Assembly (NCBI GenBank): GCA_016716435.1
Contig: JADJWI010000004.1
Location: forward strand, 37,045 to 101,044
DNA: 64,000 bases
Origin: Acidobacteriota bacterium
GTDB lineage: Bacteria > Acidobacteriota > Blastocatellia > Pyrinomonadales > Pyrinomonadaceae
Direction of reading: 5' to 3'
Below, piece after piece: positions 3,532 to 59,080 of the stretch; the first letter of the stretch is position 1; each line of letters starts with the position of its first letter. Position numbers and translations under genes: made by a program. The notes beneath the pieces were generated by a model. It worked only from the letters and a program-made list of their open reading frames with translations. It ran no database searches and was not told the origin of the DNA.

Positions 3532-6063
3532 ATGCCCGAGAGCTCAACCGAGCAGTTCCCCGCTTCGAACGCAATCAACTACTATGTTGGTTTGACCATC
3601 TTGGTCGGCGCCGCGGTCTTCGCCTATGCAGCCGCGACGCTCCCTGTCAATTCGCTGGACACCCGGTTTCTTATACTCGCCGGTTGCACGATACTGCTCG
3701 CCTCGCGAGTACTGATCCGCATCCCAACGATCAAATCGCACATAGCCGTCTCTGACATCTTCGTTTATCTGACGTTACTAATGTTTGGCGGTGAGGCGGC
3801 GATCCTGCTTTCGGCTGTCGATACTTTCTTTTCGGCCTGGCGATTCTGCAAAAAATACCGGACGATTCTTTTCAACACCGCGGCCCTCACAATCTCGACT
3901 GCCGCAGTCTATGGCGTCTTGGTCATCTCCGGGCTTTATTCGGAACCGCAGCTCCACGGACAGGCACCGTATTTCCGCGATTTTCTCCTGGCGCTTTCGC
4001 TGATGGCCTTGACGCAGTTTGCCGTCAATACCGTCCTCGCTTCACTCTACGATTCGATCAATCAAGGTGCCCCGCTGCTTGAGACCTGGACATCCAGATA
4101 CCTCTGGAGCTTTATAACTTATCTGGTCGGCGCCGCCGGGGCGGGCCTTCTGGTGCAGTTGGTCGATTACGCAGGCTTCGTCGTTGCCCTCCTCGCATTC
4201 CCTATATTGCTCTTCATTTACTTTTCGTATCGTATGTACATGCGGAACGTCGAGATGAGTGCCGAACAAGCCGAAAAGGCGCAAGAGTATGCCAAGATGA
4301 TCGAAGAGCGCTCTGAAGCCCTTACCGAATCCGAAGAGCGGTTTCGTAGTGCTTTCGATAATGCTCCGATCGGCATCGCACTGGTCAAACCAGGCGGCAA
4401 ATTGCTCAAGGTGAACACGGCTCTCTGCGATATGCTTGGCTATCCGAATGACGAACTGCGCGAACTTTCTGTCCGTCACATCTTTTTCAAGGAAGACCTT
4501 CCAAATGTCTTTTTCCGCGTTGGCGAAGTCGCCTCGGGCACTGTCGCATCGCATCAGATGGAACAGCGTTGCCGAAATCGAAACAATGAGGCGGTTTGGA
4601 CGCTTTGGAGTATGTCGCTCGCTGCAGCGGATGTCTCAAAGGGCCGCGAAATAATATTTCAGATGCAGGACATAACTGCCCGCAAGATCGCAGAAGAAAA
4701 GCTTGTGCACGAGGCGACGCACGATCTGCTGACCGGCCTCCCGAACAGAAACTGTTTTCAACAGAAACTCACCGAGGCCCTCGAACGCTCGCATAGGGAA
4801 AAGAACCACCGCACCAGTGTCCTTTTTATCGATCTCGACCGCTTCAAGTACGTCAATGACAGCCTCGGGCACATGGTCGGCGATCAGCTCCTGATCAGTA
4901 TCTCGAACCGGTTAAAGAATTCGATCCGTCCACACGATCTCGTCGCCAGGCTCGGCGGCGACGAGTTTACCGTCTTGGTCGAAGGAACCTACGACGACGT
5001 TGAGATCGCCGGCATGGCCGAGCGAATCCAGCGAAACCTGGCCAATCCCTTCAACCTACGCGGACACATAGTTTACAGCTCGGCGAGCATCGGTATCCTT
5101 CATGCATCGGAGCGGCACGAGCGGGCCGAGGACATGATGCGCGATGCCGACACCGCAATGTACCACGCGAAGCGGTCAGGAAAGGCGAGATACGAGATCT
5201 TTGATGACTCAATGCACGCGGAAGCCAGCGAAACACTTCGGCTCGAGACCGATCTGCGGCAAGCGATAAAGGAAGGAAAGATCGAGGTCTGCTTCCAGCC
5301 GCTCTTCTCGCTGACTGACCGCGAGTTGACCGGCTTTGAAGCCCTTGCCCGCTGGCATCATCCGGAACTTGGCGAGATTTCGCCGGGCCGTTTCATTCCG
5401 CTTGCCGAGGAGATCGGCTGGATAGATACGCTTGGCGAAAACATTCTTCGAGCCGCCTGCACCCACGTTCGCAATATACATCGCAAGTTCCCTCGCTATG
5501 CTCATACGAAGGTGAACGTAAATCTTTCGTCGCAGCAGTTTCGCAGCACGGGCCTCGTCGGCCGCATCCAGTTGATACTCTCGCAGGCCGGCTTTTCGCC
5601 CGAAAATCTTCGGCTTGAGATAACCGAGTCGGTTTTCTTTGAACACCAGGACCGTGCCATCGCGATGCTTGCCCAACTGCGCGACCTCGGAGTTGAGATA
5701 GACATTGACGATTTCGGCACCGGCTACTCAAACCTCAGTTATTTGGTGCGGCTGCCGATCTCGCGGCTGAAGATCGACAAGTCGTTTGTCCAAATGATCC
5801 GAGAGGATGGCTCGAACACCGAGATCGTCCGGACGATCATCGCCTTGGCACGCAACCTCGATCTGGGCCTGGTTGCCGAAGGCATAGAGCACGAATATCA
5901 GATATCGGCTCTGCGGACACTCGGCTGCGACTCCGGCCAGGGTTACCTTTTTAGCGCGCCGCTACGGCCTGACAAGCTCGAGGAGTTTGTCGCCGATTGC
6001 GACCGCGGTCTCATCGGCAGTACCGACGTGCCGGAATACGCACACATCCTTACCGTCCAATAG
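3532..6063 (+). CDS. Membrane sensor with PAS, GGDEF and EAL domains (c-di-GMP turnover)
   Basis: Multiple hydrophobic helices in the first ~270 aa. Motifs RLGGDEFTVLV, FEALARW and DDFGTGYS are present. The first ATG at 3532 lies inside the ORF that opens at 3457. Confidence 0.9.
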   Translation: MPESSTEQFPASNAINYYVGLTILVGAAVFAYAAATLPVNSLDTRFLILAGCTILLASRVLIRIPTIKSHIAVSDIFVYLTLLMFGGEAAILLSAVDTFFSAWRFCKKYRTILFNTAALTISTAAVYGVLVISGLYSEPQLHGQAPYFRDFLLALSLMALTQFAVNTVLASLYDSINQGAPLLETWTSRYLWSFITYLVGAAGAGLLVQLVDYAGFVVALLAFPILLFIYFSYRMYMRNVEMSAEQAEKAQEYAKMIEERSEALTESEERFRSAFDNAPIGIALVKPGGKLLKVNTALCDMLGYPNDELRELSVRHIFFKEDLPNVFFRVGEVASGTVASHQMEQRCRNRNNEAVWTLWSMSLAAADVSKGREIIFQMQDITARKIAEEKLVHEATHDLLTGLPNRNCFQQKLTEALERSHREKNHRTSVLFIDLDRFKYVNDSLGHMVGDQLLISISNRLKNSIRPHDLVARLGGDEFTVLVEGTYDDVEIAGMAERIQRNLANPFNLRGHIVYSSASIGILHASERHERAEDMMRDADTAMYHAKRSGKARYEIFDDSMHAEASETLRLETDLRQAIKEGKIEVCFQPLFSLTDRELTGFEALARWHHPELGEISPGRFIPLAEEIGWIDTLGENILRAACTHVRNIHRKFPRYAHTKVNVNLSSQQFRSTGLVGRIQLILSQAGFSPENLRLEITESVFFEHQDRAIAMLAQLRDLGVEIDIDDFGTGYSNLSYLVRLPISRLKIDKSFVQMIREDGSNTEIVRTIIALARNLDLGLVAEGIEHEYQISALRTLGCDSGQGYLFSAPLRPDKLEEFVADCDRGLIGSTDVPEYAHILTVQ

Positions 6064-6088
6064 AAAACGGCCGCATCGGCAGCGGCCG
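6064..6088 (-). terminator. Intrinsic terminator candidate downstream of sdhB
   Basis: Stem cggccgc (6068-6074) pairs with gcggccg (6082-6088). On the minus strand it is followed by a TTTT run (plus-strand aaaa at 6064-6067). It lies between convergent genes. Confidence 0.5.
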
Positions 6089-6112
6089 CTGAGTCCTAAA
6101 ATTACCCTAAGC

Positions 6113-6913
6113 TTACTTCTTTAGCCAGCCAAAAAGCGCGTTGACAGTGATGTCGCGGTTCGTTTCGTAGATCGCCTTTGTCAGAGGCACAGACATCGGG
6201 CAGACCTGAACGCAATTCTGCGCATTGCCGCAATTGGTGATGCCATCTTCGCCCATCAGCCCATTGAGCCGTTCATCAATATCGGTCTTGCCGACGGGAT
6301 GCATATTGAACAGCCGAGCCTGAGCGATCGCCTGTGGGCCGATGTAATTGTCGTCGCCGTACTGCGGGCACGCCTCAAGACAGCAGCCGCACGTCATGCA
6401 CCGCGAGAGAGCGTAACGCTCCTGTGCGACCTCGTTCGAGATCGCGGGCCCCGGCCCGAGGCTATGGCTGCCATCGAGTTCGACCCAAGCGTGGACCTGT
6501 TTCAAGTGATCAAACATCTTCGTCCGGTCAACCTTAAGGTCGCGGACATTTGGGAACTTCGACATCGGCTGAAGCGTCACCGTGTCCGAGCCCGAAGCAA
6601 GCAACAGATCATCGATCAGCGCCGAACACGATTGCCGCACCGTCCCGTCGATCACCATCGTACAGATGCCGCAGACCTGCTCAAGACAGCTCATGTCCCA
6701 AACCGGCGGCGTTGTCGCTTTGCCCTCTATGGTTACCGGCTCTTTGCGCACGTCCATCAATGCCGAGATGACGTTCAGGTTTCGCCGATACGGCAGCTCA
6801 AACGTGTCCCAGCTCACCGGTGCGCCCTCTTTCTCACGCCGCTGTATCTTCAGCTTGAACTTCGCCGGCGGCGTCTCCAGCCGCTTTTTTTCTATATGGT
6901 TGCTTTCACTCAT
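6113..6913 (-). CDS. sdhB: Succinate dehydrogenase / fumarate reductase iron-sulfur subunit
   Basis: Cys clusters CGICTM, CMTCGCCLEACP and CGNAQNCVQVCP, in the same operon context as sdhA and sdhC. Confidence 0.9.
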   Translation of the reverse strand: MSESNHIEKKRLETPPAKFKLKIQRREKEGAPVSWDTFELPYRRNLNVISALMDVRKEPVTIEGKATTPPVWDMSCLEQVCGICTMVIDGTVRQSCSALIDDLLLASGSDTVTLQPMSKFPNVRDLKVDRTKMFDHLKQVHAWVELDGSHSLGPGPAISNEVAQERYALSRCMTCGCCLEACPQYGDDNYIGPQAIAQARLFNMHPVGKTDIDERLNGLMGEDGITNCGNAQNCVQVCPMSVPLTKAIYETNRDITVNALFGWLKK

Positions 6914-39022: not shown

Positions 39023-41168
39023 TTCTTTTCTCGTCCTAAACATTTCGCTGGCCTCCCTCGCTTTTGCCTCGCCGCAGGTAGTGACGGCACAGCCTTCGGC
39101 ACGATTCGAGCCCTCGAAAAAGTCCTGGGATTGGGCCGATAGGACGCTCAAGAAAATGACGACCGATCAGAAGGTCGGGCAGTTGATCCACGTCGGCATC
39201 AATGCCCGGTTTGCCAATCAGGACAGTTGGTTCTTCAAGGACCTGCGGCGGCACGTGACGGAAAACAAGATCGGCGGAATCATCTTTTTCGGGGCTCCGA
39301 TCTATGAAACGACCCACATCGCCAACCGAATGCAGGAGGCGGCCAAGATACCGATGCTGATGTCGCTCGACGCCGAGACCGGCATCGGAATGCGGTTTCA
39401 GGACGCGACCAACTTCCCTTGGGCAATGGCCGTCGCCGCGACCGGCGAGCCCGAGTTTGCCCGTCGAATGGGCGCGATCACCGGCCGCGAGGCACGAGCC
39501 ATCGGCATTCAGCACGTTTATGCACCCGTGCTCGACGTCAACAACAACGCCGATAATCCGGTCATCAACGTCCGCAGCTTTGGCGAGGACCCCGAGGACG
39601 TTGCACGCTTCGGCGTCGCCTTTGCCCAAGGGCTTCAGAGCGAGCGGGTCATCGCGACCGCCAAGCATTTTCCCGGCCATGGCGATACGAATGTCGATTC
39701 GCACCGCGGGCTTCCGATCATCGATCTCCCCAAGTCGCGGCTCGATTCCGTCGAGCTTGTTCCCTTCCGCCGAGCGGTCGAGGGCGGCATCGGCTCGGTG
39801 ATGATCGCCCATATCGCGCTTCCGCAGATCGATGGCGAAGAGATCCGCCCGCTAAAGGAATACCAGGGCGGCGACGCCGAACCCGGCACCGAGATCGTCA
39901 CCGAAAAGGCGACCATCCCCGCTACGCTTTCGCACAAAGTGCAGACCGAGATGCTGCGAAACGAGATGGGCTTCAAGGGCCTTATCGTCTCCGACGCGAT
40001 GTCGATGAGCGGCCTGACGCTTTATTTCACACAGGAGGAAGCTGGCGTCCGCGCGTTCCTCGCCGGTACCGACATCCTCGAAAAACCAGAGAATGTTGAC
40101 GCGATGATCCGCGGCCTGAAAGCCGCCGTCGCAAGCGGACGAATACCGATGGCACGGCTTGATGACTCGGTCCGCCGCCAGCTTGCCTGGAAGCACGCCG
40201 TCGGCCTGACCGAGCAAAAGATAACCCCGCTTGACCAGATCGACCGCATCGTCAGCGGTCCCGAAACGAACCGGCTGACCGATGAGATAGCACAACGTGC
40301 TATCACATTGGTGCGGCAGGAGGCGGGTGCAATGCCGGTCAATCGGGAAAAGAAGATCGCGGTCTTTGGCATCTCGAATGGTTTTGATGGCCCCGCGACC
40401 ATGGGCCCGTTTGCCGGCACGCTCCGCTCGGCGGGCCTCCGGTTCGGACAGGCATATTTGCAGGAGAACTCGCTCGCCGAGCAGGCCGCCGCGGCCCGAA
40501 AGACCGTCATGGAAGCGGACACCGTGATCGTCGGGCTCTACGGCCGCGTTCGCTCGGGTGCGAGGAACAGCGTCGGCATTCCCGAGAACGGAGCCGCAAT
40601 TCTCCGCGAGGCACTCGCGGCCGGAAAGCAGGTGATCGGGATCAGCTTCGGCAATCCGTACATTCTGTCGTCGTTCCCCGAGATGAAGACCTACGTCGTC
40701 GCGTACGGCGACATGGCAAGCCTCCAGCGTGCCGCCGCAAGAGGACTTCTCGGCCAGCAGCAGTTCACCGGAAAGCTGCCGATCAGCCTTCCGGGCTTAC
40801 ACCCACGCGGCTTTAATGCATCGCTCAACTTACCTAAACCGATTGCCCTTCCAAAACCCAATTTTCCGCCTGCGGCCTTAGCTGTTCGGGCGAGGAGTGA
40901 CGTTTTGGTAAACGTTTTGATTGATGAAAGCGGCATGGTCAGCGAAGCTACCGCGATTTCAGGTCACCCGCTGTTGCGACAGGCAGCAGTGAATGCCGCT
41001 AAGGGTTCCAAGTTTCAAATCGATGATGAAACGAAAACGAAACAAATAACGATCATATATCGCTTTGCCGAAGAAGGTACGACTGACTCACCGTGCTGTG
41101 AAGGGTTTCCGTACTTGGTTACGATAGCTGCCCCGGACATCAGAATAGCTCCGGGAGGTGTCCATTAA
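38997..41168 (+). CDS. Glycoside hydrolase family 3 (NagZ-like beta-N-acetylhexosaminidase) with C-terminal TonB_C-like domain
   Basis: Signal peptide; KHFPGHGDT; GLIVSDAMSM (nucleophile Asp). C-terminal PNFPPAALAVRARSDVLVNVLIDESGMVSEATAISGHPLLRQAAVNAAKGSKF. Confidence 0.85.
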   Translation: MVMMKFLISSFLVLNISLASLAFASPQVVTAQPSARFEPSKKSWDWADRTLKKMTTDQKVGQLIHVGINARFANQDSWFFKDLRRHVTENKIGGIIFFGAPIYETTHIANRMQEAAKIPMLMSLDAETGIGMRFQDATNFPWAMAVAATGEPEFARRMGAITGREARAIGIQHVYAPVLDVNNNADNPVINVRSFGEDPEDVARFGVAFAQGLQSERVIATAKHFPGHGDTNVDSHRGLPIIDLPKSRLDSVELVPFRRAVEGGIGSVMIAHIALPQIDGEEIRPLKEYQGGDAEPGTEIVTEKATIPATLSHKVQTEMLRNEMGFKGLIVSDAMSMSGLTLYFTQEEAGVRAFLAGTDILEKPENVDAMIRGLKAAVASGRIPMARLDDSVRRQLAWKHAVGLTEQKITPLDQIDRIVSGPETNRLTDEIAQRAITLVRQEAGAMPVNREKKIAVFGISNGFDGPATMGPFAGTLRSAGLRFGQAYLQENSLAEQAAAARKTVMEADTVIVGLYGRVRSGARNSVGIPENGAAILREALAAGKQVIGISFGNPYILSSFPEMKTYVVAYGDMASLQRAAARGLLGQQQFTGKLPISLPGLHPRGFNASLNLPKPIALPKPNFPPAALAVRARSDVLVNVLIDESGMVSEATAISGHPLLRQAAVNAAKGSKFQIDDETKTKQITIIYRFAEEGTTDSPCCEGFPYLVTIAAPDIRIAPGGVH

Positions 41169-42640
41169 TGGCGTCGTGGCGAATTGACGATTTTCTTACC
41201 GTCCGCGATGGGCGGCTGCACATTGACGGCCACGACGCCGTCGCGCTTGCCCGCGAATACGGCACGCCGCTTTTCCTCTATAGCGAGCCGCGGATCCGCC
41301 ACAACATCGACCGGCTCAAGCGGGTCGGCGAGGCTGTCGGCTGCGGATTCAAGCTTTGTTATGCAGCGAAGGCGATGTCCACGCTCGGCGTCCTTCGTTC
41401 GGTGCGCGATGCGGGTTGCGACCTTGAGGTCAATTCGGGCGGCGAGCTTTGGAAAGCTTTGAAAGCCGGTTTCCGCGGCGACCAGCTAAATTTCAACGGC
41501 CTGAGCAAAGAGGCATGGGAGATCGAACTCGCGATCGAGAACGGCGTTTATGCGATCCAGGTCGATTCGCTCTACGAGCTTTCGCTGATCGAAGAAACGG
41601 CCACGCGGCTCGGCAAAAAGGCGAACGTCAGCCTCCGGCTCGTCCCGGGCATCGAATCGGCGACCCACTCCGGCCTGCAGACCGCAATGCTCACCTCGAA
41701 ATTCGGAATGATGCCGGACGAGGCTTTCGGGGCTTTCGCACGATATAAAGACTCGGAACACCTGAACCTAAGCGGCATTCACCTGCACGTCGGCTCGCAA
41801 AACCCTTCGCCCGAGGTTTACACACAGGCGTTTGACGAGATGTTTGGTGCCTTGCTCCGCATCTATCGCGAGACCGGGATCCGGTTGCAGCACATCAATC
41901 TCGGCGGCGGCTTCCCGGTAAATTATCTCCGCGACGGTGCGCAGGCCGGCGACTTCCCCGCCGAACAACGCGAGATGTTTGCCGCCGACTTTGAGCCCGC
42001 CGAGGCGATGCGAGCCGCCTGGGCCGCGGTCCTCAAGAAAGCCGAAGCCGAAAACGTCGTCGATCTGCTCGAAGGCATTACGCTTCTCCTCGAACCCGGC
42101 CGCTCCATCATCGCCGACGCCGCCATCTGCCTGACCACGGTCCGCAATCACAAGGAACGTCCCGTTCATCAAAGCTCCCCTCCTTACGAAGGAGGGGTGG
42201 CCGCCGCTTCGGCTGACGGGGTGGTTCTCGCATCTGACCACCGACCACTGACCACTGACCACTGGCTCCTAACCGACGCCGGCTTCAACATCCTGCTTTC
42301 GATGGAGACCTACAAATGGTACTACCATCTGGTCTCAGCCGAGCGTGCCGGCGAGCCGCACGAAACGCCCTACAAACTTGCCGGCCCGCTATGCGACGGC
42401 GGCGATGTCTATTTTGATATCGAGGGAGAAGGAAGGCTGCCTGACCACCGGCTCTTGCCCGAAAACGTCGAACCCGGCGAGGTGCTCGCCCTGCTCAATT
42501 GCGGTGCCTATTCGCTCGCCCAGGCCTCGCAATACAACGGCCGCTTCCTTCCGCCCGTCGTCATGACAAAGGCCGACCGCACCGCCGAACTCATCCGCCG
42601 CCGCGACACCTTCGAAGACCTCATCGCCAACGACCTTTGA
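41168..42640 (+). CDS. PLP-dependent Orn/DAP/Arg decarboxylase family 2 enzyme (diaminopimelate decarboxylase-like) carrying a ~30-aa insertion
   Basis: CYAAKAMS (PLP Lys), HLHVGSQ, NLGGGFPV, EPGRSI and GPLCDGGD motifs. The ATG overlaps the GH3 stop (TAATG). Confidence 0.8.
   Translation: MASWRIDDFLTVRDGRLHIDGHDAVALAREYGTPLFLYSEPRIRHNIDRLKRVGEAVGCGFKLCYAAKAMSTLGVLRSVRDAGCDLEVNSGGELWKALKAGFRGDQLNFNGLSKEAWEIELAIENGVYAIQVDSLYELSLIEETATRLGKKANVSLRLVPGIESATHSGLQTAMLTSKFGMMPDEAFGAFARYKDSEHLNLSGIHLHVGSQNPSPEVYTQAFDEMFGALLRIYRETGIRLQHINLGGGFPVNYLRDGAQAGDFPAEQREMFAADFEPAEAMRAAWAAVLKKAEAENVVDLLEGITLLLEPGRSIIADAAICLTTVRNHKERPVHQSSPPYEGGVAAASADGVVLASDHRPLTTDHWLLTDAGFNILLSMETYKWYYHLVSAERAGEPHETPYKLAGPLCDGGDVYFDIEGEGRLPDHRLLPENVEPGEVLALLNCGAYSLAQASQYNGRFLPPVVMTKADRTAELIRRRDTFEDLIANDL
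42177..42229. repeat. REP-like double-hairpin element, copy A (inside the decarboxylase CDS)
   Basis: cccctccttacgaaggagggg forms a 9-bp stem. A second hairpin lies around ccgcttcgg, followed by ggggtggttctc. It is near-identical to 59030-59080. Confidence 0.85.
42235..42262. repeat. Four tandem heptamers (T/C)GACCAC
   Basis: tgaccac cgaccac tgaccac tgaccac, directly 3' of REP copy A and inside the CDS. Confidence 0.85.
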
Positions 42641-46917: not shown

Positions 46918-48274
46918 TTACGCCAAAGCGTCTTCGCCAGTCTCTAAGACAGCCGCTAATAAACCGGCACGTACGTGGTCTATCCGCTTCTTTACTCGTT
47001 GCCTCTCGTCCTCGGTCTCCAGCGTCATTTCGGCATATTCCGCGGTCAGCATTAATTGGCTTATAAGTGCAGAACGGCGTGACCGCGAGCCAGTTCGCTC
47101 GGCCACAAGCTCGATCGCAGACGCAAGCTTCAAAAAGACTGCCGAATTGCCCTTGCCGCTCATGCGGATCTGGTCAAAGGCCGTTCCGAGAAAATCGGCA
47201 AACCCCGGGGCGTTCACAATGATCAAATGCTTGCCATCCGCAACCCTGGCCCTGTCCGGGAATTTCTTTGATGCGAGTTCGCCCATCAATTCCCCGAGGT
47301 TCTCGATGCAATTGACGGCGGTCGTCGTATCGTTGATGCCCGGTGACAAAGCCTTAAGCGCAATATCAACAAGTTGACGAAGCCCGAACCCAACATCCTG
47401 CTCAATGGTCGATCTCTCGCGACCACAAAAGATCGTTGAGTTCTTCTATTTTATCGTCACCAAACTCTTTGTCATCCAGCGGCAATACCGAAACGATCCG
47501 CGAGCCCGTGCCGACAAACGAACCAACCCCTACTTCCATCCGAACAACACAGGCGTTGTCGGCCGCAAACTCGGCCATATCGTCAATGTCAACCAGCTTA
47601 ACGTATCCCGATCGCGACGATGGCACCTTTATCCAATCACGCTCAACGTCATCCAATTTATCATCTATCTCGTCATCATCTTCGGCCGCCGGCTTGCCGA
47701 GATCATCGGGAAACAGAGTACGGATGCTCTTCTTTGTCTCATCGACTATCTCGCCGATAATATTGCTGATCTGGAGCGAGGCAGAGATGTGGTGAATAAA
47801 AAAGATCAGAACGACGATGCCGCCGATCGCCAGAACCAGCCCCGTAACGACCGCGATCGAAGGAACGAATTTCTCCTCGTCGCCGCTTCTGATCGTTCGC
47901 AAAACAACTAGGCAATACGCGAAAATGGAGACAAAATATCCCAAGACGAATTGGTTCGCCCTGTCGCGAAGAAAGTTGCGAAAGATACGCGGGGTGAACT
48001 GCCCGGAAGCCTGATTTACCGCATTAAGCGTAAGTGAAAAAACAAGAGCAGCCACCGTCAGCATCGACGACGCAATGGCCGTCAGCATTCCCCGCGACCC
48101 ATCAACACCAACGCCAAACAAAAGCGGATAACGCGAGGTCCAATCGTTGCCGATCGTTGAATCGACCTCGACCAGCACCAGTGCCAAGACGATCGACGCG
48201 GCGATCATCAAACCGGGGACAAACCACAGCGACGCCCTAAGCTCGATCCAAAAACTGATTAATCGATTGGTCAT
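46918..48274 (-). pseudogene. DUF2254-family membrane protein, reading frame broken near 47423-47430
   Basis: The N-terminal 290-aa ORF (47402-48274) stops at ...SREIDH*. The +1 frame continues GRERSTIEQDVGFGLRQLVDIALKALSPGINDTTTA into ORF 46918-47349. Confidence 0.7.
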
Positions 48275-48362: not shown

Positions 48363-50392
48363 CTACCGAACAACAAGTTCCCTTTCCCGAAGGTACTTTA
48401 GCTTGTCCCGAATCTCGGCGGCGCGTTCAAATTTCATCTCCTTCGCCGCGGCCCGCATATCGGCCTCTAGTTGGGTGATGGTCTCTTTAAGCTGCTTTGG
48501 CGAATATTCCTCGATCCCTTCAAGGTCGAGCGGGACCTTAAAGTAATCCGCCTCATAGGCCGTTACAAGCGTCGCCTCGATCGGCTTGACGATGGTCGTC
48601 GGCGTTATGCCGTGCTCGGAGTTGTAGGCTTCCTGAATCGCCCGCCGCCGATTGGTTTCGCTGATGGCGTAGTCCATCGACTTGGTTATCTTATCGGCGT
48701 AGAGGATCGCCCGGCCGCCGGAGTTTCTAGCCGCCCGGCCGATGGTCTGTATCAGCGATCGCTCCGAACGCAGGAAGCCCTCTTTGTCCGCGTCGAGTAT
48801 CGCGACCAGCGAGACCTCGGGCAGGTCGAGCCCCTCGCGGAGCAAGTTGATGCCGACCAATACGTCAAACTCGCCGCGCCTCAGATCGCGGAGTATCTTG
48901 ATGCGGTCGAGCGTTTCGATGTCGCTGTGCAGGTACGAAACCTTCACGCCAACCTCGGCAAAATATTCGCTCAGGTTCTCGGCCATCCGCTTCGTCAGTG
49001 TCGTTACAAGAACGCGTTCGTTCCGCTCCGCCCGCACGCGGCACTCCTCAAGCAGGTCGTCGATCTGCCCTTTGACCGGCCGGACCTCGACGACCGGGTC
49101 GAGCAAGCCCGTCGGCCGGATGATCTGCTCGATCACCTCGCCCTCGGTCTGCTCAAGCTCGAACGGCCCCGGCGTTGCCGAAACGTAGATCGTCTGCCCG
49201 CGGCGTTCTTCAAATTCCCCAAAGTTCAGCGGACGGTTGTCGCGCGCCGAGGGCAGCCGGAAGCCGTACTCGACAAGTGTCCCTTTTCGCGACTGGTCGC
49301 CCTTGAACATCGCCCCAAGCTGCGGAATCGTCTGGTGCGATTCGTCGATAACCATCAGCGCATCTTTCGGCAAATAGTCGAGCAAGGTCGGCGGCGGCTC
49401 GCCGGGCTTTTTGCCGGTCAGGTGCCGCGAATAATTTTCGATGCCGCGGCAAAAGCCCATTTCCTTGATCATCTCAAGGTCATACATCGTCCGCTGATGG
49501 AGCCGCTGTGCCTCGACGATCTTGCCCACCTCGACCAGCACCTTTTCATGCTCGTCGAGCTCCGCCCGGATGGTCTTCGCCGCCCGCTTGATGGTGTCCT
49601 TTGACATCACATAGTGCGTCTTTGGGTAGATCGGCAGCCGCGATGTGTGTTTGTAAATGACCTCGCCGAGCAGCGGGTCGATGGTCGAGATCGAGTCGAT
49701 CTCATCACCCCAAGAACTCGATCCTGTACGCCTGGTCCTGATAGCTCGGATAGACCTCGACTACATCGCCGCGGACTCGAAACGTACCACGGTCAAAGTC
49801 GACATTCACCCGTTCATACTGAAGCTCGACCAGCTTTTGCAGAAAGTCCTCGCGACGAAGTTGCTGCCCGGGCTCGATGAACATCAGCATCCCGAAATAA
49901 GCGTCCGGATCGCCAAGGCCGTAAATGCACGAGACCGACGCGACGACAATAACGTCCCGCCGCTCAAAGAGCGCACGTGTCGCCGATAGCCGCAGCCGGT
50001 CGATCCTCATCGTTTATCGTCGCCTCTTTTTCAAGGTAAAGATCGGCCGCCGGCACGTATGCCTCGGGCTGATAATAGTCGTAATACGAAACGAAATACT
50101 CGACCGCGTTCTCCGGAAAAAAGCCTTTGAACTCCTGATAAAGCTGCGCCGCCAGCGTTTTGTTATGGGCCAGCACGAGCGTCGGCCGCTGCGTCTGCTG
50201 GATCAGATTCGCGATCGTGAAGGTCTTGCCCGAGCCCGTTATACCAAGCAGAACCTGATCTTTTGCTCCGCCATTTATACCCTCAACCAACTGCCGGATC
50301 GCCTCCGGCTGATCGCCCTTCGGCGTGTTTTCACTATGAGACGAAATTGCATTTCTTAGATGATACCGAATTCGGGCCCCGATGAAAAGCAT
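48363..50392 (-). pseudogene. uvrB: Excinuclease ABC subunit B, split into three ORFs by two single-base insertions
   Basis: Fragments are 49964-50392 ([24 protein letters not shown]), 49705-50010 ([12 protein letters not shown]...) and 48363-49610 (helicase C, UVR domain). The junctions restore ...[13 protein letters not shown]... and ...[15 protein letters not shown]... if one C is removed at 50005-50006 and one at 49708-49711. Confidence 0.9.
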
Positions 50393-50450
50393 TCACAACC
50401 TGAGAACTTAAAGTTATACTAAGGATGATGAATTCTATGCTCAAAAGCAT

Positions 50451-51975
50451 GGGGGTTTCTTCCGGGCGGTTTTTTTCTCCGGGGGGGGGAAGGATTCAAA
50501 AAGGGGGGGGGGTCTCCGCTTTTTCCTTTGCGGCTTTTTTTTTTAACTGTCGCGGCGGGCGGAAAGCGTTGACCGGGCCTGTCGCGGTCTTCGCTTTTCG
50601 TTTCCCCGGCGGGAACGGCGGGGGGGGCGGGGGGGGGACGCGGGCGGGGGTCAACAGGGCAAGAGGTTGCCGGGGCAAAGAAGGGTGCCTCGTTTGCTCT
50701 CGGGCCCGGGGCCTGGGCACACCTCGACGGGAATACGGCGCTCGCGGCGCCGGGGCGCGCCCCGCGACGGAAACGGCGCCGCCGCCCTTTTTAAAAGTTT
50801 GTCGTTGCTCGTTTTGATAGAGCAGGCCGCGATGCACCTACCTATTCTTGGCTCTCCGTTCAAGTCTTTTGCATATCCGCCTGGCGGGGGGGTAATAGGG
50901 GGGGGGGGGGTTGGGGGCGGGGGGCCCGGGGGTTTTGGGGGTGGGTGGTTTTTTTTGGGGGGGGGCTTGGGGCCGTGGTTTTTTGGGGGGGGGGGGGTTT
51001 TTTGGGGGGGTGGGCGGGGGGGGGGGGGGGGGGGGGGGCGGGGGGGGGCTCCGGGGGGGGGGGGGGGGGCCTCGGCCCGGGGCCTTCCGGGGGGGGGCCG
51101 GGGCCCTTTTTCCCGGGGCCCCCCGGGCGGGTCGCTTGGCCCCCCCCTTTTTGGCGGCGGGGGGGGCCCGGCGGGCCTTTTGGCCCCCCCGGGGGCGGGG
51201 GCCCCCCCCCGCGGGGGGGTTTTTGGCGGGGGGTTTGGTGGCGGCTTTTTCCCGGGGCGGGGGCCCTTCGGGCGGGGCTTTTGTTTCGGCGGTTGGCCCG
51301 GGCGGGGTTTTTTGGGCGGCGGGGGGCCCCCCGGGCTTGCTTCGGGGGGGGTGTTGTCCTTTCGGGGGGAATTTCGCGGCGGGCTTTTTTTCCGGGGGGG
51401 GCGGGCCGGGTTTTTTTTTTCGGCCCCGGGGGGGGGGGGGCCCCGCCCCCCCTTTTGGCGGGGGGGGCGGCCGCGGGGCGGCCTCCTGGGGGCCCACGGG
51501 GGCCGCTTCGTTCGCGGGTGGCGGGCCGTTCGGCGGGGGGGGCGTTTTTGGGGGTCCCTGGGGGGGGCCGGCCCCGGGTTTTGGGGGGGGCGGCCCCCCG
51601 GGGGGGGCCCCTCCGGGGGGGCCCGCCCCCCCTGGGGGGCGTTTGGGGGGCCCCGGCGGGGGGGGGTTCCCGCCCCGGGGGGGCGGCCCCCCGGGGGGGG
51701 GCCTCCTTGGGGCCGCCCCCTCCGGCCCCCGGGCCCTTTCGGGGTTTTTCCCTTTTTCGTTCTTCCGGCCGGGGGGGCCTTTTTCGTCCCGCCCGGGGGC
51801 GGGGGGGGTTCCGCGGTCCCCCCCCCGCGGCGGGGGGGAACTTTTTCGGGGGGGGTTTTTGGGGGCCCTTTTTTTGGGGGCGGGGGGGGGGGGGCCTATT
51901 TTTTTTGGGGTCCGGGGGGTTTCCGTTTTTTTGTGGCCCCGCCCCCGCGGCGGTCCCGGGGGTCCGGCCTCTTAG
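50451..51975. other. Adenine-depleted tract of G/C/T homopolymer blocks (non-coding; artefact or exotic element)
   Basis: G runs of 23 nt (51016-51038) and 17 nt (51053-51069); T10 at 51411-51420. I count only six A between 50898 and 51970. All six frames are open purely for lack of stop codons. Confidence 0.9.
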
Positions 51976-51979
51976 TTAA

Positions 51980-53379
51980 ATGAAAATGCGTATCTATCAT
52001 TTCAGCAAACTTCTGTTACTGTTTCTCGGCCTTTTTTTCGCCCTTTCGTCCGACGTGAGCGGGACAATACTACGGGTTACGACCCTCGAAGATACTGACG
52101 ATGGTGTTTGCGATGCACACTGCAGCCTCCGCGAGGCGGTCAATACGGCATCGAACGATGACACCGTCATCTTTGACCAAGCCTGCGTGGAGGGACGATT
52201 CACCTTACGAATACTTTAACTTAAAGAACAGGTTTTGACCATCGACGGCCCGAACCGCAGGCGGATCACGCTTAAGGGAACAAATCCTTTCGCATTTTTC
52301 ATATAGGCGGCACCAGTAGCATTTTCACAAGCGTGTCTATCGATGGTTTGATCATTCGTGATGGTGCTGATCCAGGCGGTCGCGGCGGCGGTATCTACCT
52401 GGACTCCTTCGCAACCTTATTTCTTACTGACTGCGTGATCACCAACAACCACGCCGCCTTTGGCGGCGGTATCCGTTCGTTTCTTGGCTTTCTACGCATC
52501 AAAGACTGCACTATCGCAAACAATACGAGCGACGGCCCGGGCGGCGGGGCCGGCATCGAAGCCCGAATGGATGGCGGAAACATGGAAATAGTTAACAGCA
52601 CGATAACCGGCAATGTCGCAATGGACGGACGGGCGGGATCAAGCTAACCGTCAGGAAGTATGCGCCTTTTAAATAGCACAGTAGTCGATAATCATCCGTT
52701 CGGCACCGGCAACGCTCGTGTCGGCGGTATTTATACCGAGGGCTCAACGATATCTCTAACCGGAATTTACAACTCGATCATTGCCCGCAACACCGGCGAG
52801 ATACCAGACCTCAGGCTTGGTGCGGGCGACTACAACTTGATCGGGATCGGAACCGGTTCTTCATGCGAGAACGGAGGTTGCCCTTACAGCAAGGTTGGGA
52901 CACCCCAAGACCCCCTCGACCCCATGCTCGGACCATTGACCGACAACGGTCGCGGACTTCCGATCTTTTCGCCACTGACAACTAGCCCGGCAATTAACGC
53001 GGGGTTCAGCGTTTTTAGTCAACCGTATTTTTTTTCGGATTTTTCGACCGACCAGCGTGGTTTTACCCGGATCGCAAACAAGGTCATCGACCTCGGTTCG
53101 GTCGAGTTTGGCGCGACGCCGGTTCCGAAACTCTCCGAAGTTCGCGGGCGTGTCGTTTCCGCGACCGGACGTGGAGTTTCCGGCGCCCGTCTTATCCTGA
53201 CCGATGACAAAGGAGAGTCAAGGTACGCAATGACAAATTCCTCCGGCTACTATCGCTTCGACGGGATCGCTCCGGATGTGACGGTAACCGTTGAGGTCGC
53301 GGGAAAGCGGCATCGATCTTCGCCGCAAACTCTTTTCGTCGAAGAGGAGCGTGAATACCTCGACTTCAGAGTGGACTGA
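51980..53379 (+). pseudogene. CSLREA-motif parallel beta-helix surface protein with C-terminal CarboxypepD_reg-like domain, decayed
   Basis: Signal peptide; DGVCDAHCSLREAV; beta-helix repeats (GGGIY..., FGGGI..., GGGAGI...). In-frame TAA at 52217-52219 and 52645-52647, plus a frame change around 52285-52300. Confidence 0.75.
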
Positions 53380-54938: not shown

Positions 54939-55492
54939 ATGCCCGAACCAATTGCTATAGAAAACCTAATGTTCTACGATCCGGACCTCGAAAGTTACGC
55001 CGCCGCCTTTCGGGCGGAGCACGGTTCAAGAGGTAAGACCCACTCGGTCGCCACGACAACTGACCTCATCGACGCCGTGAAGCAATACACAAAGGTGCGT
55101 TACCTTGAGGTTGTGATGCATGGTTCGCCCGGAATGATCTGGTTCAAGACCGGCGGCCAGATGGTGCCCGTTATCTCGGCGTAATAATCAATGATTCGAA
55201 GATGCTTTCGATAAATGCTCGTATACTATTCCTCGGATGCAACATCGCAGACGGTCCCGCCGGAGACACTTTTCTTGTTGAGATCGGGAAGGCGATGTTC
55301 CCGGGAACCGGTGGCACGGTCGGCGGGACCAACTCGATAAACGTGGTCATCGGCGGCACGACCACAAGGATGAATCCCTTGCGCTTCTTCGACACCAAAT
55401 TGAAAGTTCGGCGATTCGATGCGGATGGGAAAATGATTGCCGGAGAGGACGTGGGCTATTGGGGCGATCGGACAACAGTAAATGTTCGTTGA
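54939..55492 (+). pseudogene. DUF4347-like domain protein split into two ORFs
   Basis: ORF1 ends ...LEVVMHGSPGMIWFKTGGQMVPVISA*. A different frame, open from 55109, continues ...ARYLGVIINDSKMLSINARILFLGCNIADGPAGDTFL. Confidence 0.5.
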
Positions 55493-55506
55493 TCGCTATT
55501 TGCCAT

Positions 55507-56392
55507 CTAGGCTCTCGTTTCGAGAACCTCCAGCTTATCGCCAACCCTGATCACAACCCCCGGGTTCTCGGGGATTAGATTCTCACCAAAGAGGACGTAG
55601 TTGGGTTCCATACCAAGCTCTTCTAGCTTGTCGGGAAAAACGTCCTTCGCCATCCGGAAGCTTGCCAGGGTCCGGAGCGGTTCCTTGCCGGCAAATTCAC
55701 CGCGGTCGGGGTCGACCGTCGTGATCGCACACCGGGCACAGGGTTTCACCACGCGGAAAATGGCCTCGCCAACCCTGATCCTCGCCCAGCTATCTTCTTC
55801 AAACGGCTCGGTGCCGCTAACGACAAGGTTCGGCCGGAATCGCCGCATCTCGAGCGGAACGCGGTCGGCCTCGTTCGTACTATTCGCCGCGATCCGCCGG
55901 TTCAGCTCCGCAAGCGAACCCTCGCCGATCAGCAGCAACGGATAACCGTCCGCAAAGCTGACCAGATCATCCCCGCGATCAAACCGCTCGCTGACGTGCC
56001 GCTCCGTGGATTCGGGCATCAAAACAAGCTGACAGTTCCGCCCGAGCACCTCACTGAACCACTCATTCACTTGCGTCGGATAAACCAAAGCACGACATTC
56101 AGAATTCCATATTTGCACCGACATGGACTTCACAGTGTCCTTCTTGGTTCCATCAGCGACGAACAAAGGCTCTGTTTCCGGCGCGCCAACGACTATTCCG
56201 GTGTCACTAACATCTACCGAAATCAGCCATTTTTGGCACTTCCCGCTGCGTCAGGAACATCCCCTCGCGGTCCGTCAGCATCCACCGCCGGTCATGTCGC
56301 AACCCGCGTTTCTCAACCAACGCCTCGGAAAGTGCGTTCCCGCGAAGCGATTTGATCGGATAAATGTTTATCTTGGAAATTTTCATTGCCAC
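55507..56392 (-). pseudogene. MOSC-domain protein (YcbX-like), split by a single-base insertion near 56217
   Basis: The MOSC_N piece (56207-56392, INIYPIKSLRG) ends ...MADFGRC*. Removing one C at 56217-56218 gives MADFVDVSDTGIVVGAPETEPLFVADG..., joining ORF 55507-56166. Confidence 0.75.
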
Positions 56393-59017: not shown

Positions 59018-59029
59018 TCCGCTCCCGCA

Positions 59030-59080
59030 CCCCTCCTTACGAAGGAGGGGTGTCACCGCTTCGGTGACGGGGTGGTTCTC
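59030..59080. repeat. REP-like double-hairpin element, copy B (downstream of groEL)
   Basis: cccctccttacgaaggagggg, then gtcaccgcttcggtgac (7-bp stem), then ggggtggttctc, followed by ttttcc. It may double as the groEL terminator. Confidence 0.85.

What the first reader, a model, noticed from the sequence alone, without database searches (positions are those of the whole stretch)
50451..51975. 1.5-kb nearly adenine-free tract of G/C/T homopolymer blocks filling the uvrB / beta-helix-gene divergent spacer
Between the uvrB ATG (50392, minus strand) and the ATG at 51980 the sequence stops resembling the rest of the window. It is built from homopolymer blocks: G23 at 51016-51038, G17 at 51053-51069, T10 at 51411-51420, and many C7-C9 runs. 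From 50898 to 51970 I count only six A residues (51370, 51371, 51496, 51839, 51840, 51898). Stop codons need A on the plus strand and T on the minus strand, so all six frames stay open. That explains the three overlapping plus-strand ORFs of 344-438 aa and the 219-aa minus ORF, which translate to Gly/Pro/Arg/Phe noise. The tract ends at a tag/taa/tga cluster in three frames (51973-51983), and both flanking genes keep their start codons. Two readings are possible. (i) It is a basecalling, assembly or generated artefact, which fits the concentration of indel-type gene disruptions on both sides (47.4-56.4 kb). (ii) It is real, in which case it is an exceptionally dense G-quadruplex (plus strand) and i-motif (minus strand) array, slippage-prone, sitting in a divergent promoter region. 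I know of no described element family like it.
Basis: partly seen in the sequence, partly recalled or inferred. Interest (0 to 1): 0.85.

Follow-up and report, generated by a model that had tools for sequence, protein, structure and literature searches.

The report
Garbled copy of a real gene
The adenine-free G/C/T tract is almost certainly not a real genomic element: it is a position-by-position corrupted rendering of an ordinary 510-codon secreted-protein gene that a related bacterium carries at the same spot, so it is a sequence-quality artefact.

Summary
Positions 50898-51970 hold 6 A in 1073 bases, and 46 of the window's 57 homopolymers of 7 or more lie in the tract. The tract is not noise and not a G-quadruplex array. 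A related Pyrinomonadaceae metagenome contig (L081, ERZ761602 NODE-7744) carries an intact 510-aa delta-60-repeat/DUF5122 beta-propeller gene between the same two genes, uvrB and a CSLREA beta-helix gene. The tract aligns with that gene in register over about 1.1 kb. The global score is 749, against 134±17 for shuffles. Permissive blastn gives E=2e-45.

The differences are directional:
- G is kept 95% of the time, C 73%, T 62% and A 4%.
- Almost nothing becomes A.
- The substituted base is nearly always one found within 2 nt in the true gene, most often the 5' neighbour.

I applied a four-channel smear model to the L081 gene, with intensities G>C>T>>A and a tail of about 1.5 nt towards the 3' side. 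It reproduces the tract at 79% identity and matches its composition.

The tract sits at the centre of a 9.5-kb stretch in which five genes carry frameshifts. Neighbouring regions are clean. No relative has anything similar in 1.2 Mb.

Verdict: a base-calling or consensus artefact laid over a strain-variable gene cassette. The platform cannot be determined from the sequence. Interest is low.

The parts
50449..50816 (+). Tract part 1. Moderately corrupted 5' untranslated region and first ~420 nt of a delta-60-repeat gene. It is deletion-rich, has G9/G10/T10 runs, and keeps about 35-40% of the expected A.
   Evidence: Collinear with L081 6800-6344. Blastn of window 50508-50654 against gene positions 35-186 gives 69% identity, E=6e-10.
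50817..50874 (+). 58-nt island of normal composition. It is homologous to the whole 59-nt uvrB/CSLREA spacer of relative L001. It sits at the collinear position of about 100 nt of the L081 gene but is not clearly homologous to that stretch.
   Evidence: 47/58 identical, ungapped, to the L001 spacer. Context is shown.
50875..51973 (+). Tract part 2. Heavily corrupted, in-register rendering of the last ~1.0 kb of the delta-60-repeat gene and its ~100-nt downstream intergenic region. It is A-free and built of G/C/T homopolymer blocks.
   Evidence: Global score 749 against shuffles 134±17, and 10 of 11 100-nt blocks fall on the diagonal. Blastn gives 59% identity over 911 nt, E=2e-45. Neighbour bleeding is shown. 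The smear model reaches 78.6% identity.
48363..50352 (-). uvrB, split into three reading frames by single-base indels at about 49712, 50005 and 50335. The true start is the ATG at 50352.
   Evidence: Tblastn of intact 663-aa UvrB from L081, L001 and L004 hits frames -1, -2 and -3. Indels are listed. Pfam finds UvrB, Helicase_C, UVR and ResIII domains.
51980..53379 (+). CSLREA / choice-of-anchor-Q beta-helix protein gene with a C-terminal CarboxypepD_reg domain. It is broken into three ORFs by 1-2-nt deletions at 52185, 52221, 52229, 52286, 52629 and 52660.
   Evidence: 96% nt identity to the intact 468-aa gene of L081. Frames are and indels. The window fragment is covered.
46918..48274 (-). 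DUF2254 membrane-protein gene, frameshifted at about 47430. This marks the left edge of the low-quality stretch.
   Evidence: The two ORFs hit DUF2254 profile positions 1-254 and 287-366. The 447-aa L004 homologue hits two frames.
54939..56392 (.). Two further frameshifted genes: an unnamed 213-aa gene on the + strand (shift at 55166) and a MOSC-domain gene on the - strand (shift at about 56220). This marks the right edge of the low-quality stretch.
   Evidence: One search shows two frames for each gene. One search gives the MOSC hit.

Best explanation
The tract is an artefact of how this sequence record was produced. It is not a feature of the DNA.

What lies underneath is an ordinary, strain-variable gene cassette. 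It encodes a signal-peptide-bearing delta-60-repeat (DUF5122 beta-propeller) protein with a CarboxypepD_reg tail, together with its short untranslated flanks. The cassette is inserted between uvrB and the CSLREA beta-helix gene, as in the related contig ERZ761602 NODE-7744 (L081).

In the window this cassette has been rendered by a process that behaves as follows:
- It keeps the register: one output base per true base over about 1.1 kb.
- It almost never emits A.
- It lets the base at each position be overwritten by a stronger neighbour, with dominance G > C >= T >> A.
- It carries over mainly from the 5' side on the + strand.

This is how a base-caller or consensus step behaves when one channel or base class is effectively dead and adjacent signals smear into each other. 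It turns coding sequence into G/C/T homopolymer blocks. Because every stop codon needs an A (or, on the other strand, a T), all six frames stay open.

The cassette is the part of the locus that differs between co-occurring strains. Well-supported consensus probably stops at its edges, and a poorly supported stretch fills the gap. The same weak support explains the single-base frameshifts in five genes within about 4.5 kb on either side.

Shown: the homology, the register, the directional rule, the neighbour dependence and the local frameshifts. Inferred: that the cause lies in sequencing or consensus. Undetermined: which platform or software produced it.
For: (1) Synteny. L081 and L001 share uvrB and the CSLREA gene with the window at 86-96% nt identity. 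L081 has an intact 510-aa ORF between them. That ORF is a delta-60-repeat/DUF5122 protein: TIGR02608 E=1.3e-101, PF17164 E=3e-67.

(2) Collinearity.
- Global alignment score is 749, against 134±17 for 100 shuffles and a maximum of 272 for 62 unrelated natural segments.
- 10 of 11 100-nt blocks have their best ungapped match on the diagonal.
- Permissive blastn gives E=2e-45 and E=6e-10, and the window is the only hit to the gene outside L081 among the window and the other 81 loci, apart from a 40-nt match of the downstream intergenic end in L082.

(3) Directional matrix for 50870-51975.
- G to G 276/292; C to C 195/268 (C to G 57); T to T 172/278 (T to G 81).
- A to A 10/250 (A to G 140, to C 73, to T 27). 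Changes to A total 2.
- Flanking genes show symmetric substitutions at 89-96% identity.

(4) Neighbour dependence. The substituted base occurs within ±2 nt of the true gene in 84-100% of cases, against a baseline of 66-71%. It equals the 5' neighbour in about 50-60% of cases, against a baseline of 25%.

(5) Models.
- Priority order G>C>T>A is the best of 24 orders tested.
- A smear model with intensities 1 / 0.65 / 0.5 / 0.05 and a tail of about 1.5 nt towards the 3' side raises identity from 57.5% to 78.6%. It predicts composition G556 C320 T240 A1, against the observed G568 C301 T225 A12.
- A tail towards the 3' side fits better than one towards the 5' side, 1487 against 1320.

(6) Local quality. 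There are frameshifts in DUF2254, uvrB (three), CSLREA (six or more indels), a 213-aa gene and MOSC within 46.9-56.4 kb. There are none in the coding sequence of 38-46.8 kb that L001 and L002 cover, and GroEL is intact.

(7) Rarity. Nothing comparable occurs in 1.2 Mb of relatives.

(8) The tract's ORFs hit no family, and BLASTP against the L081 protein finds nothing. This is expected if codons were destroyed rather than evolved.
Against: No reads, qualities or assembly metadata are available. The window's own record could not be found by exact-protein look-up. The artefact is therefore inferred from the sequence alone.

I know of no standard platform that yields a 1.1-kb, in-register, A-free error pattern.
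- Two-channel chemistry encodes G as no label and A as both labels (PMC11140927). That fits the dominance order. However, it is a short-read method, and mixed C+T signal should be called A, which is not seen.
- Sanger traces rarely stay in register that long.

Both ends of the tract are abrupt, and they coincide with the edges of the cassette rather than with arbitrary positions.

The 58-nt clean island resembles L001's spacer more than it resembles L081's gene. The simple picture of one bad read does not explain this.

The best model reaches only 79%. The remainder is unknown true divergence plus unmodelled error.
Confidence: 0.88

Rival explanations
1. Mixed-strain chimeric consensus. This is a variant of the artefact explanation. 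The genome that supplies the backbone has only the short L001-type spacer (about 59 nt). The two junk blocks are poorly supported insertion columns contributed by reads of a co-occurring strain that carries the delta-60 cassette. Under this reading the cassette is not part of this genome.
For: The two junk blocks are exactly the two insertions relative to L001, and the clean island between them is 81% identical to L001's whole spacer. The island replaces about 100 nt of the gene with 58 nt of only weakly similar sequence. One assembly, ERZ761602, contains at least two strains with different inserts at this site (L081 and L082). Collapsing about 10%-divergent strains would also explain the frameshifts on both sides.
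Against: A local-majority consensus with equal base weights does not reproduce the tract. The same kernel with equal intensities scores 794, against 1487 with G>C>T>>A, so an extra base-specific bias is still needed. The clean stretch extends about 25 nt further left than the L001 remnant and there matches the L081 gene (TTTGTCGTTGCTCGTTTT).
Confidence: 0.25
2. Real DNA. In this reading a delta-60-repeat gene was converted in vivo into an adenine-free, G-run-rich pseudogene by a strand-specific hypermutation process limited to the cassette. The product now acts as a G-quadruplex/i-motif array in the divergent uvrB promoter region.
For: The tract's edges coincide with the cassette edges rather than with arbitrary positions. 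A+G in part 2 is 52%, close to a normal purine content, and A to G is the commonest change.
Against: The changes are not one mutational signature. C to G is 21% and T to G is 29%, both transversions, alongside A to G, C and T, and none go toward A. The replacing base copies a neighbour, mostly the 5' one. The register is kept with almost no indels despite G23, G17 and T10 runs, which would slip in vivo. About 40% of positions are changed while adjacent genes differ from L081 by 4-11% with symmetric substitutions. Five surrounding genes, including uvrB, carry frameshifts typical of poor sequence. No relative has such a tract.
Confidence: 0.03
3. Diversity-generating-retroelement-type adenine mutagenesis of a variable region.
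For: Adenines are the most affected base: 96% are replaced, by any of the other three bases.
Against: C and T are also replaced, at 27% and 38%, and always toward G or C. There is no template repeat: neither the tract nor the L081 gene has a second copy in the 64-kb window. The affected stretch is 1.5 kb and includes untranslated flanks, not the roughly 100-200-nt 3' region that I recall as typical of such variable regions (own knowledge). None of the ten ORFs between 45.3 and 56.2 kb that were scanned hit a reverse-transcriptase family. The rest of the window was not scanned.
Confidence: 0.01
4. Content-free filler. In this reading the tract is random base-caller junk, a low-complexity read or machine-generated sequence with no underlying gene, and the true spacer is about 60-130 nt as in L001.
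For: L001, the relative closest in UvrB (97% aa), has only a 59-nt spacer. The tract's ORFs match nothing.
Against: In-register homology to the L081 cassette over about 1.1 kb (z about 36 against shuffles; E=2e-45) cannot arise from content-free junk. An autoregressive generator that had corrupted its own context would not be expected to hold register for 1 kb; this last point is inference.
Confidence: 0.03

Closest known systems
Delta-60 repeat domain / DUF5122 beta-propeller secreted proteins (NCBIfam TIGR02608, Pfam PF17164), specifically the 510-aa gene at ERZ761602 NODE-7744 (L081) 5234-6766
   Same: It occupies the same genomic position, between uvrB and the CSLREA gene. The tract, including flanks, has nearly the same length as the cassette (about 1525 nt against 1625 nt). 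DNA is collinear base for base, with G positions 95% conserved.
   Different: The window copy no longer encodes the protein. There is no HMM hit and no BLASTP similarity. 96% of A is lost, 27-38% of C and T is overwritten, and one 58-nt segment follows L001's spacer instead of the gene.
Low-signal base-calling artefacts, such as poly-G stretches of two-channel sequencing-by-synthesis, where G carries no label, C and T one label each, and A both (PMC11140927)
   Same: The dominance order is the same. G is absorbing, C and T are intermediate, A is the most fragile, and nothing is converted into A. Carry-over from the preceding base resembles phasing.
   Different: The tract is 1.5 kb and in register, far longer than such reads. 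It contains long C and T runs as well as G runs. C/T junctions are not called A, as mixed two-channel signal would be. The platform is therefore not identified.
G-quadruplex / i-motif promoter elements
   Same: There are many G runs of 3 or more on the + strand and C runs on the - strand, lying between divergent genes.
   Different: The runs are by-products of corrupting a coding sequence. There is no conservation and no counterpart in 82 related loci. The tract is most likely absent from the real DNA.
Uncorrected low-coverage segments in long-read or hybrid metagenome assemblies (own knowledge)
   Same: A local cluster of single-base indels frameshifts five neighbouring genes, centred on a strain-variable site.
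   Different: From my own knowledge, typical long-read errors are scattered indels and mismatches, not an A-free, neighbour-smeared, in-register rendering.

Membership tests
Delta-60 repeat protein gene (TIGR02608 / PF17164) | The translation matches the delta-60 / DUF5122 repeat profile above the curated cut-off | tested here: not met
   The three tract ORFs give no NCBIfam or Pfam hit at E<=0.01. The L081 orthologue scores 332 bits against a cut-off of 76.5.
Delta-60 repeat protein gene (TIGR02608 / PF17164) | DNA-level orthology: same flanking genes and collinear nucleotide homology to a bona fide member | tested here: met
   Score 749 against 134±17, blastn E=2e-45, and 10 of 11 blocks on the diagonal.
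G-quadruplex / i-motif regulatory array | The G-tracts are present in the organism's DNA and recur at the orthologous site in relatives | tested here: not met
   The orthologous sites in L001, L081 and L082 have normal sequence. No comparable tract occurs in 1.2 Mb of relatives. Presence in the real DNA is not testable without reads.
G-quadruplex / i-motif regulatory array | Folding into G4 or i-motif structures in vitro or in vivo | not testable with these tools
   This would need CD or DMS footprinting. The question is moot if the tract is an artefact.
Diversity-generating retroelement variable region | Substitutions confined to positions that are adenine in the template | tested here: not met
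   73 of 268 C positions and 106 of 278 T positions also changed, mostly to G.
Diversity-generating retroelement variable region | A nearby template repeat, plus a reverse transcriptase gene | tested here: not met
   There is no second copy of the tract or of the L081 gene in the 64-kb window. None of the ten ORFs between 45.3 and 56.2 kb that were scanned hit a reverse-transcriptase family. The rest of the window was not scanned for one.
Two-channel poly-G type base-calling artefact | Error hierarchy follows the label code: G (none) absorbs, C and T (one label) are intermediate, A (both labels) is lost first | tested here: met
   Retention is G 95%, C 73%, T 62%, A 4%, with 2 changes toward A. 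The label code is taken from PMC11140927.
Two-channel poly-G type base-calling artefact | Mixed C+T signal is read as A, and the artefact is limited to read length (300 nt or less) | tested here: not met
   CT and TC dinucleotides of the gene are never rendered with A. The tract is in register for about 1.1 kb.
Local low-quality assembly segment | Frameshifting single-base indels in conserved genes, clustered around the feature and absent from neighbouring sequence | tested here: met
   Five genes are frameshifted within 46.9-56.4 kb. None is frameshifted in the 38-46.8 kb covered by L001 and L002, and GroEL is intact.
Local low-quality assembly segment | Low depth, low base quality or single-read support across the segment | not testable with these tools
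   No reads or quality values are available, and the window's own record was not found.

The most novel reading that the evidence does not exclude
The tract is real DNA. A horizontally variable delta-60-repeat gene cassette was rewritten in vivo by an unknown, strand-specific, cassette-limited process. This process would eliminate adenine and copy neighbouring bases, for example synthesis through an intermediate under extreme nucleotide-pool bias. It would leave a 1.1-kb A-free G/C/T block array in the uvrB promoter region.
Probability: 0.02. Interest if true: 0.9.

Novelty: not a real feature. Interest (0 to 1): 0.08.

Why it matters
For biology it matters little. The locus is most likely an ordinary uvrB / delta-60-repeat gene / CSLREA-gene arrangement at a strain-variable site.

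It matters for data hygiene.
- Gene callers will turn this tract into three or four overlapping 220-440-aa Gly/Pro/Arg/Phe-rich 'proteins'.
- G4 predictors will score it as an extreme G-quadruplex array.
- The five frameshifted neighbours, including uvrB, will be annotated as pseudogenes.
- None of these calls should be propagated.

The forensic point may be reusable. Apparently content-free homopolymer junk can still be aligned in register to an orthologous gene, and its error matrix (G>C>=T>>A, with carry-over from the 5' neighbour) is a fingerprint that could be used to screen assemblies for the same failure.

Tried and rejected
- Looking up the window's own record, or an independent assembly of the same species, by exact protein: purC, GroES, FAD oxidase and GroEL are all not on record.
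- The search for homologous proteins with the CSLREA C-terminal fragment returned only relatives at 55% identity or less. It gave no closer locus.
- Default blastn of the L081 gene against the window found nothing. Homology appears only with a global alignment or +1/-1 scoring.
- BLASTP and HMM searches of the tract's ORFs found nothing.
- Tandem-repeat analysis gave only low-scoring overlapping periods and no real unit.
- A hard priority-dilation rule (G>C>T>A, 2-nt kernel) is the best of 216 variants but reaches only 72% identity. A local-majority rule with equal weights barely improves on the raw gene, 794 against 749.
- A two-channel signal-loss model does not fit. With the observed C to G and T to G rates, independent channel loss predicts about 50% A retention, but 4% is observed (arithmetic on the matrix). 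Mixed C/T signal should also give A, and none is seen. I rejected it as a complete explanation.
- A bitwise OR/AND of 2-bit-encoded neighbours predicts about 50% C and T retention and 25% A retention. The observed values are 73%, 62% and 4%, so I rejected this too (reasoning).
- DGR mutagenesis was rejected.
Full report
**1. The observation**

The tract exists exactly as described.
- Positions 50451-51975 contain A 64, C 411, G 728, T 322. Positions 50898-51970 contain only six A in 1073 bases, at the stated coordinates.
- G23 (51016-51038), G17 (51053-51069) and T10 (51411-51420) are present.
- 46 of the window's 57 homopolymers of 7 or more lie in 50440-51980.
- Every 200-nt window with less than 8% A in the 64 kb lies here. 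There is no T-poor counterpart.
- GC rises to 0.78 and AT skew falls to -0.84 in 51-52 kb.
- The three overlapping + strand ORFs (438, 354 and 344 aa) and the 219-aa - strand ORF exist, and the + strand ORFs end in the TAG/TAA/TGA cluster at 51973-51983.
- In 1.2 Mb from 82 related loci, only one 200-nt window has any base below 3%, and only two homopolymers reach 10 nt. The tract is far outside what chance or this lineage provides.

**2. Context**

- The window comes from a member of the Pyrinomonadaceae (Acidobacteriota, Blastocatellia). The UvrB fragment is 97% identical in protein to MAG ACE_ACI7 (L001) and 86-96% identical to about 80 other Pyrinomonadaceae-type MAGs.
- Left of the tract lies uvrB on the minus strand. 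Right of it lies a gene for a CSLREA / choice-of-anchor-Q beta-helix protein with a CarboxypepD_reg tail.
- L001 is syntenic across 38-60 kb at about 77-94% nt identity.
- The true uvrB start is the ATG at 50352 ([16 protein letters not shown] in L001 and L081), not the one at 50392. A 1-nt deletion at about 50335 follows it directly.

**3. What relatives have at this site**

- L001 has only 59 nt between ...ATGCTTGAAAGC and AGTTAAATGAAAAT....
- One scan of metagenome contigs with a conserved 30-mer from the CSLREA gene returned two contigs from one assembly, ERZ761602.
- L081 is syntenic with the window (uvrB 89%, CSLREA gene 96%). It has 1.7 kb between the two genes, holding an intact 510-aa ORF (L081 5234-6766).
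- That ORF has a signal peptide, seven delta-60 repeats (TIGR02608, E=1.3e-101; PF17164 DUF5122 beta-propeller, E=3e-67) and a CarboxypepD_reg-like C-terminus.
- L082 has about 2 kb of unrelated small ORFs at the same place. The site is therefore strain-variable.

**4. The tract is a corrupted copy of that gene**

Read side by side, the tract follows the L081 cassette base for base. Two examples:
- L081 gttctccgcttcttcctttgctgcttttcttactaactgtcgctgcg against window ggtctccgctttttcctttgcggcttttttttttaactgtcgcggcg.
- L081 CTTTCGGATATTTCAACTTCTACGATCTTCAGACTGGGCAGACC against window CTTTCGGGGTTTTTCCCTTTTTCGTTCTTCCGGCCGGGGGGGCC.

Statistics:
- A global alignment of 50870-51975 with L081 6262-5146 scores 749. 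One hundred shuffles of the gene give 134±17, 62 unrelated natural segments reach at most 272, and the reversed gene gives 157.
- Rotating the gene degrades the score steadily.
- Ten of eleven 100-nt blocks have their best ungapped match on the diagonal, at a slope of one base per base. Only the G23/G17 block fails.
- With +1/-1 scoring, blastn gives window 51072-51966 against gene 710-1612 at 59% identity over 911 nt, E=2e-45. It also gives 50508-50654 against 35-186 at E=6e-10. Apart from a 40-nt match of the gene's downstream intergenic end in L082, no other locus among the window and the 82 loci searched is hit.
- Default blastn, BLASTP and the HMMs see nothing. This fits destroyed codons better than an evolved sequence.

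**5. The rule of corruption**

Against the L081 gene, part 2 shows a strictly directional matrix:

| True base | Kept | Main changes |
|---|---|---|
| G | 276/292 | few |
| C | 195/268 | to G 57, to T 16 |
| T | 172/278 | to G 81, to C 24 |
| A | 10/250 | to G 140, to C 73, to T 27 |

- Only two positions change toward A.
- The flanking genes, compared with the same contig, show symmetric substitutions at 89-96% identity.
- The replacing base occurs within ±2 nt of the true sequence in 84-100% of cases, against a baseline of 66-71%. It equals the 5' neighbour in about 50-60% of cases, against a baseline of 25%.
- A survives only inside A runs of three or more.
- Of 24 priority orders and 9 kernels, G>C>T>A with a 2-nt kernel fits best.
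- A simple signal model applied to the L081 gene predicts a sequence 78.6% identical to the tract, against 57.5% for the raw gene. The model uses four channels with intensities G 1, C 0.65, T 0.5, A 0.05. Each base has a tail of about 1.5 nt towards the 3' side, and the strongest channel is called. It predicts composition G556 C320 T240 A1 against the observed G568 C301 T225 A12.
- With equal intensities the gain vanishes (794). A tail towards the 5' side fits worse, 1320 against 1487.
- The remaining mismatch is compatible with the unknown true divergence of this genome from L081 plus unmodelled noise.

**6. Anatomy within the tract**

- Part 1 (50449-50816) covers the cassette's 5' untranslated region and about 420 nt of coding sequence. 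It is deletion-rich relative to L081 and keeps 35-40% of A.
- A 58-nt island (50817-50874) has normal composition. It is 81% identical, ungapped, to the entire L001 spacer. It stands in for about 100 nt of the L081 gene, to which it is only weakly similar.
- Part 2 (50875-51973) is in register and A-free. It runs through the stop codon and the ~100-nt downstream intergenic region.
- Recovery to clean sequence happens within 10 nt, at 51974.

**7. Surroundings**

Intact homologues from L081, L001 and L004 hit the window in more than one frame for five genes:
- DUF2254, with a shift at about 47430;
- uvrB, with shifts at 49712, 50005 and 50335;
- the CSLREA gene, with 1-2-nt deletions at 52185, 52221, 52229, 52286, 52629 and 52660;
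- a 213-aa gene, with a shift at 55166;
- a MOSC gene, with a shift at about 56220.

Alignment to L001 and L002 shows no uncompensated non-multiple-of-3 gap in the coding sequence of 38-46.8 kb, and GroES and GroEL are intact. The indels are not in homopolymers. The tract therefore sits at the centre of a 9.5-kb stretch of locally poor sequence.

**8. Interpretation**

The simplest account is that the record is wrong here, not that the DNA is strange. A register-preserving process overwrote an ordinary coding sequence. In that process one base class is never emitted and stronger neighbours overwrite weaker ones.

No single mutational process produces all of the following together:
- A to G, C and T alongside C to G and T to G;
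- nothing toward A;
- dependence on the 5' neighbour;
- almost no indels despite G23 and T10 runs;
- about 40% change confined to 1.1 kb, next to genes that differ by 4-11%.

The coincidence of the tract's edges with the cassette's edges is understandable in a mixed-strain sample. Well-supported consensus ends where strains diverge, and whatever poorly supported data bridge the gap are written out.

A variant of this account is that the backbone strain has only the L001-type spacer and the junk comes from a second strain's cassette. It explains the clean island and is not excluded (about 0.25).

**9. Which platform or software?**

I could not determine this.
- The dominance order matches the two-channel label code, in which G has no label, C and T one each, and A both (PMC11140927).
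- Against that, such reads are short and mixed C/T signal should be called A. No A appears at CT or TC junctions.
- Independent channel loss also predicts far more surviving A than is seen (arithmetic on the matrix).
- A four-colour trace with a dead A channel and peak tailing fits the rule. However, 1.1-1.5 kb in register is long for Sanger sequencing.
- Bitwise mixing of 2-bit codes and unweighted majority consensus do not fit the numbers.

**10. Comparison with known things, and novelty**

- As a gene, the underlying element is an orthologue of a delta-60-repeat/DUF5122 protein gene. Membership by DNA orthology is met. Membership by protein profile is not met, because the codons are destroyed.
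- As a G-quadruplex/i-motif array it fails the test of presence and conservation in relatives.
- As a DGR variable region it fails adenine specificity and has no template repeat.
- My verdict is 'not a real feature', with confidence about 0.88 and low interest.
- The most novel reading not strictly excluded is a real, cassette-limited, adenine-eliminating hypermutation. I give it about 2%.

**11. What would settle it**

- Raw-read mapping across 46-57 kb.
- PCR and sequencing across uvrB to the CSLREA gene from the source sample. The expected product encodes an intact gene of about 510 codons, roughly 90-95% identical to ERZ761602 NODE-7744 5234-6766.
- A screen of the same assembly for other windows with less than 3% of one base.

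Noticed in passing
window 42174-42229 and 59027-59080; also L001 1601-1621, 1708-1728 and 5140-5160, L002, L019, L022, L025, L030, L035, L055, L074: A ~55-nt intergenic double-hairpin repeat (CCCCTCCTTACGAAGGAGGGGTG..CCGCTTCGG..TGACGGGGTGGTTCTC) occurs twice in the window, each time just after a gene end; the second copy directly follows groEL. Its core hairpin recurs in 9 of 82 related loci. It looks like a REP-like or terminator-like repeat family of this lineage.
   Followed up: partly
uvrB / CSLREA-gene spacer: window 50353-51979; L001 9103-9163; L081 5137-6927; L082 115-2180: The divergent spacer is a strain-variable insertion site. L001 has 59 nt, L081 has a delta-60-repeat gene, and L082 has about 2 kb of unrelated small ORFs. 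L081 and L082 come from the same assembly, ERZ761602. L001's 59 nt may be a relic of the delta-60 gene.
   Followed up: partly
window 46918-48274 (-): A DUF2254 membrane-protein gene lies between uvrB and the FAD-linked oxidase gene in the window and in L004. It is absent at that position in L001, L002 and L081, so this is a second variable site next to uvrB.
   Followed up: no
The conserved start is the ATG at 50352, followed by a 1-nt deletion at about 50335.
   Followed up: yes
L023 13526-13772: This is the only other 200-nt stretch in 1.2 Mb of related loci where one base falls below 3% (T at 2.5%). I did not examine it.
   Followed up: no
window 39080-39103: Paired 4-nt and 2-nt insertions relative to L001 and L002 sum to 6 nt. 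This is a compensated local frame change inside an otherwise intact gene, probably real divergence rather than error.
   Followed up: no
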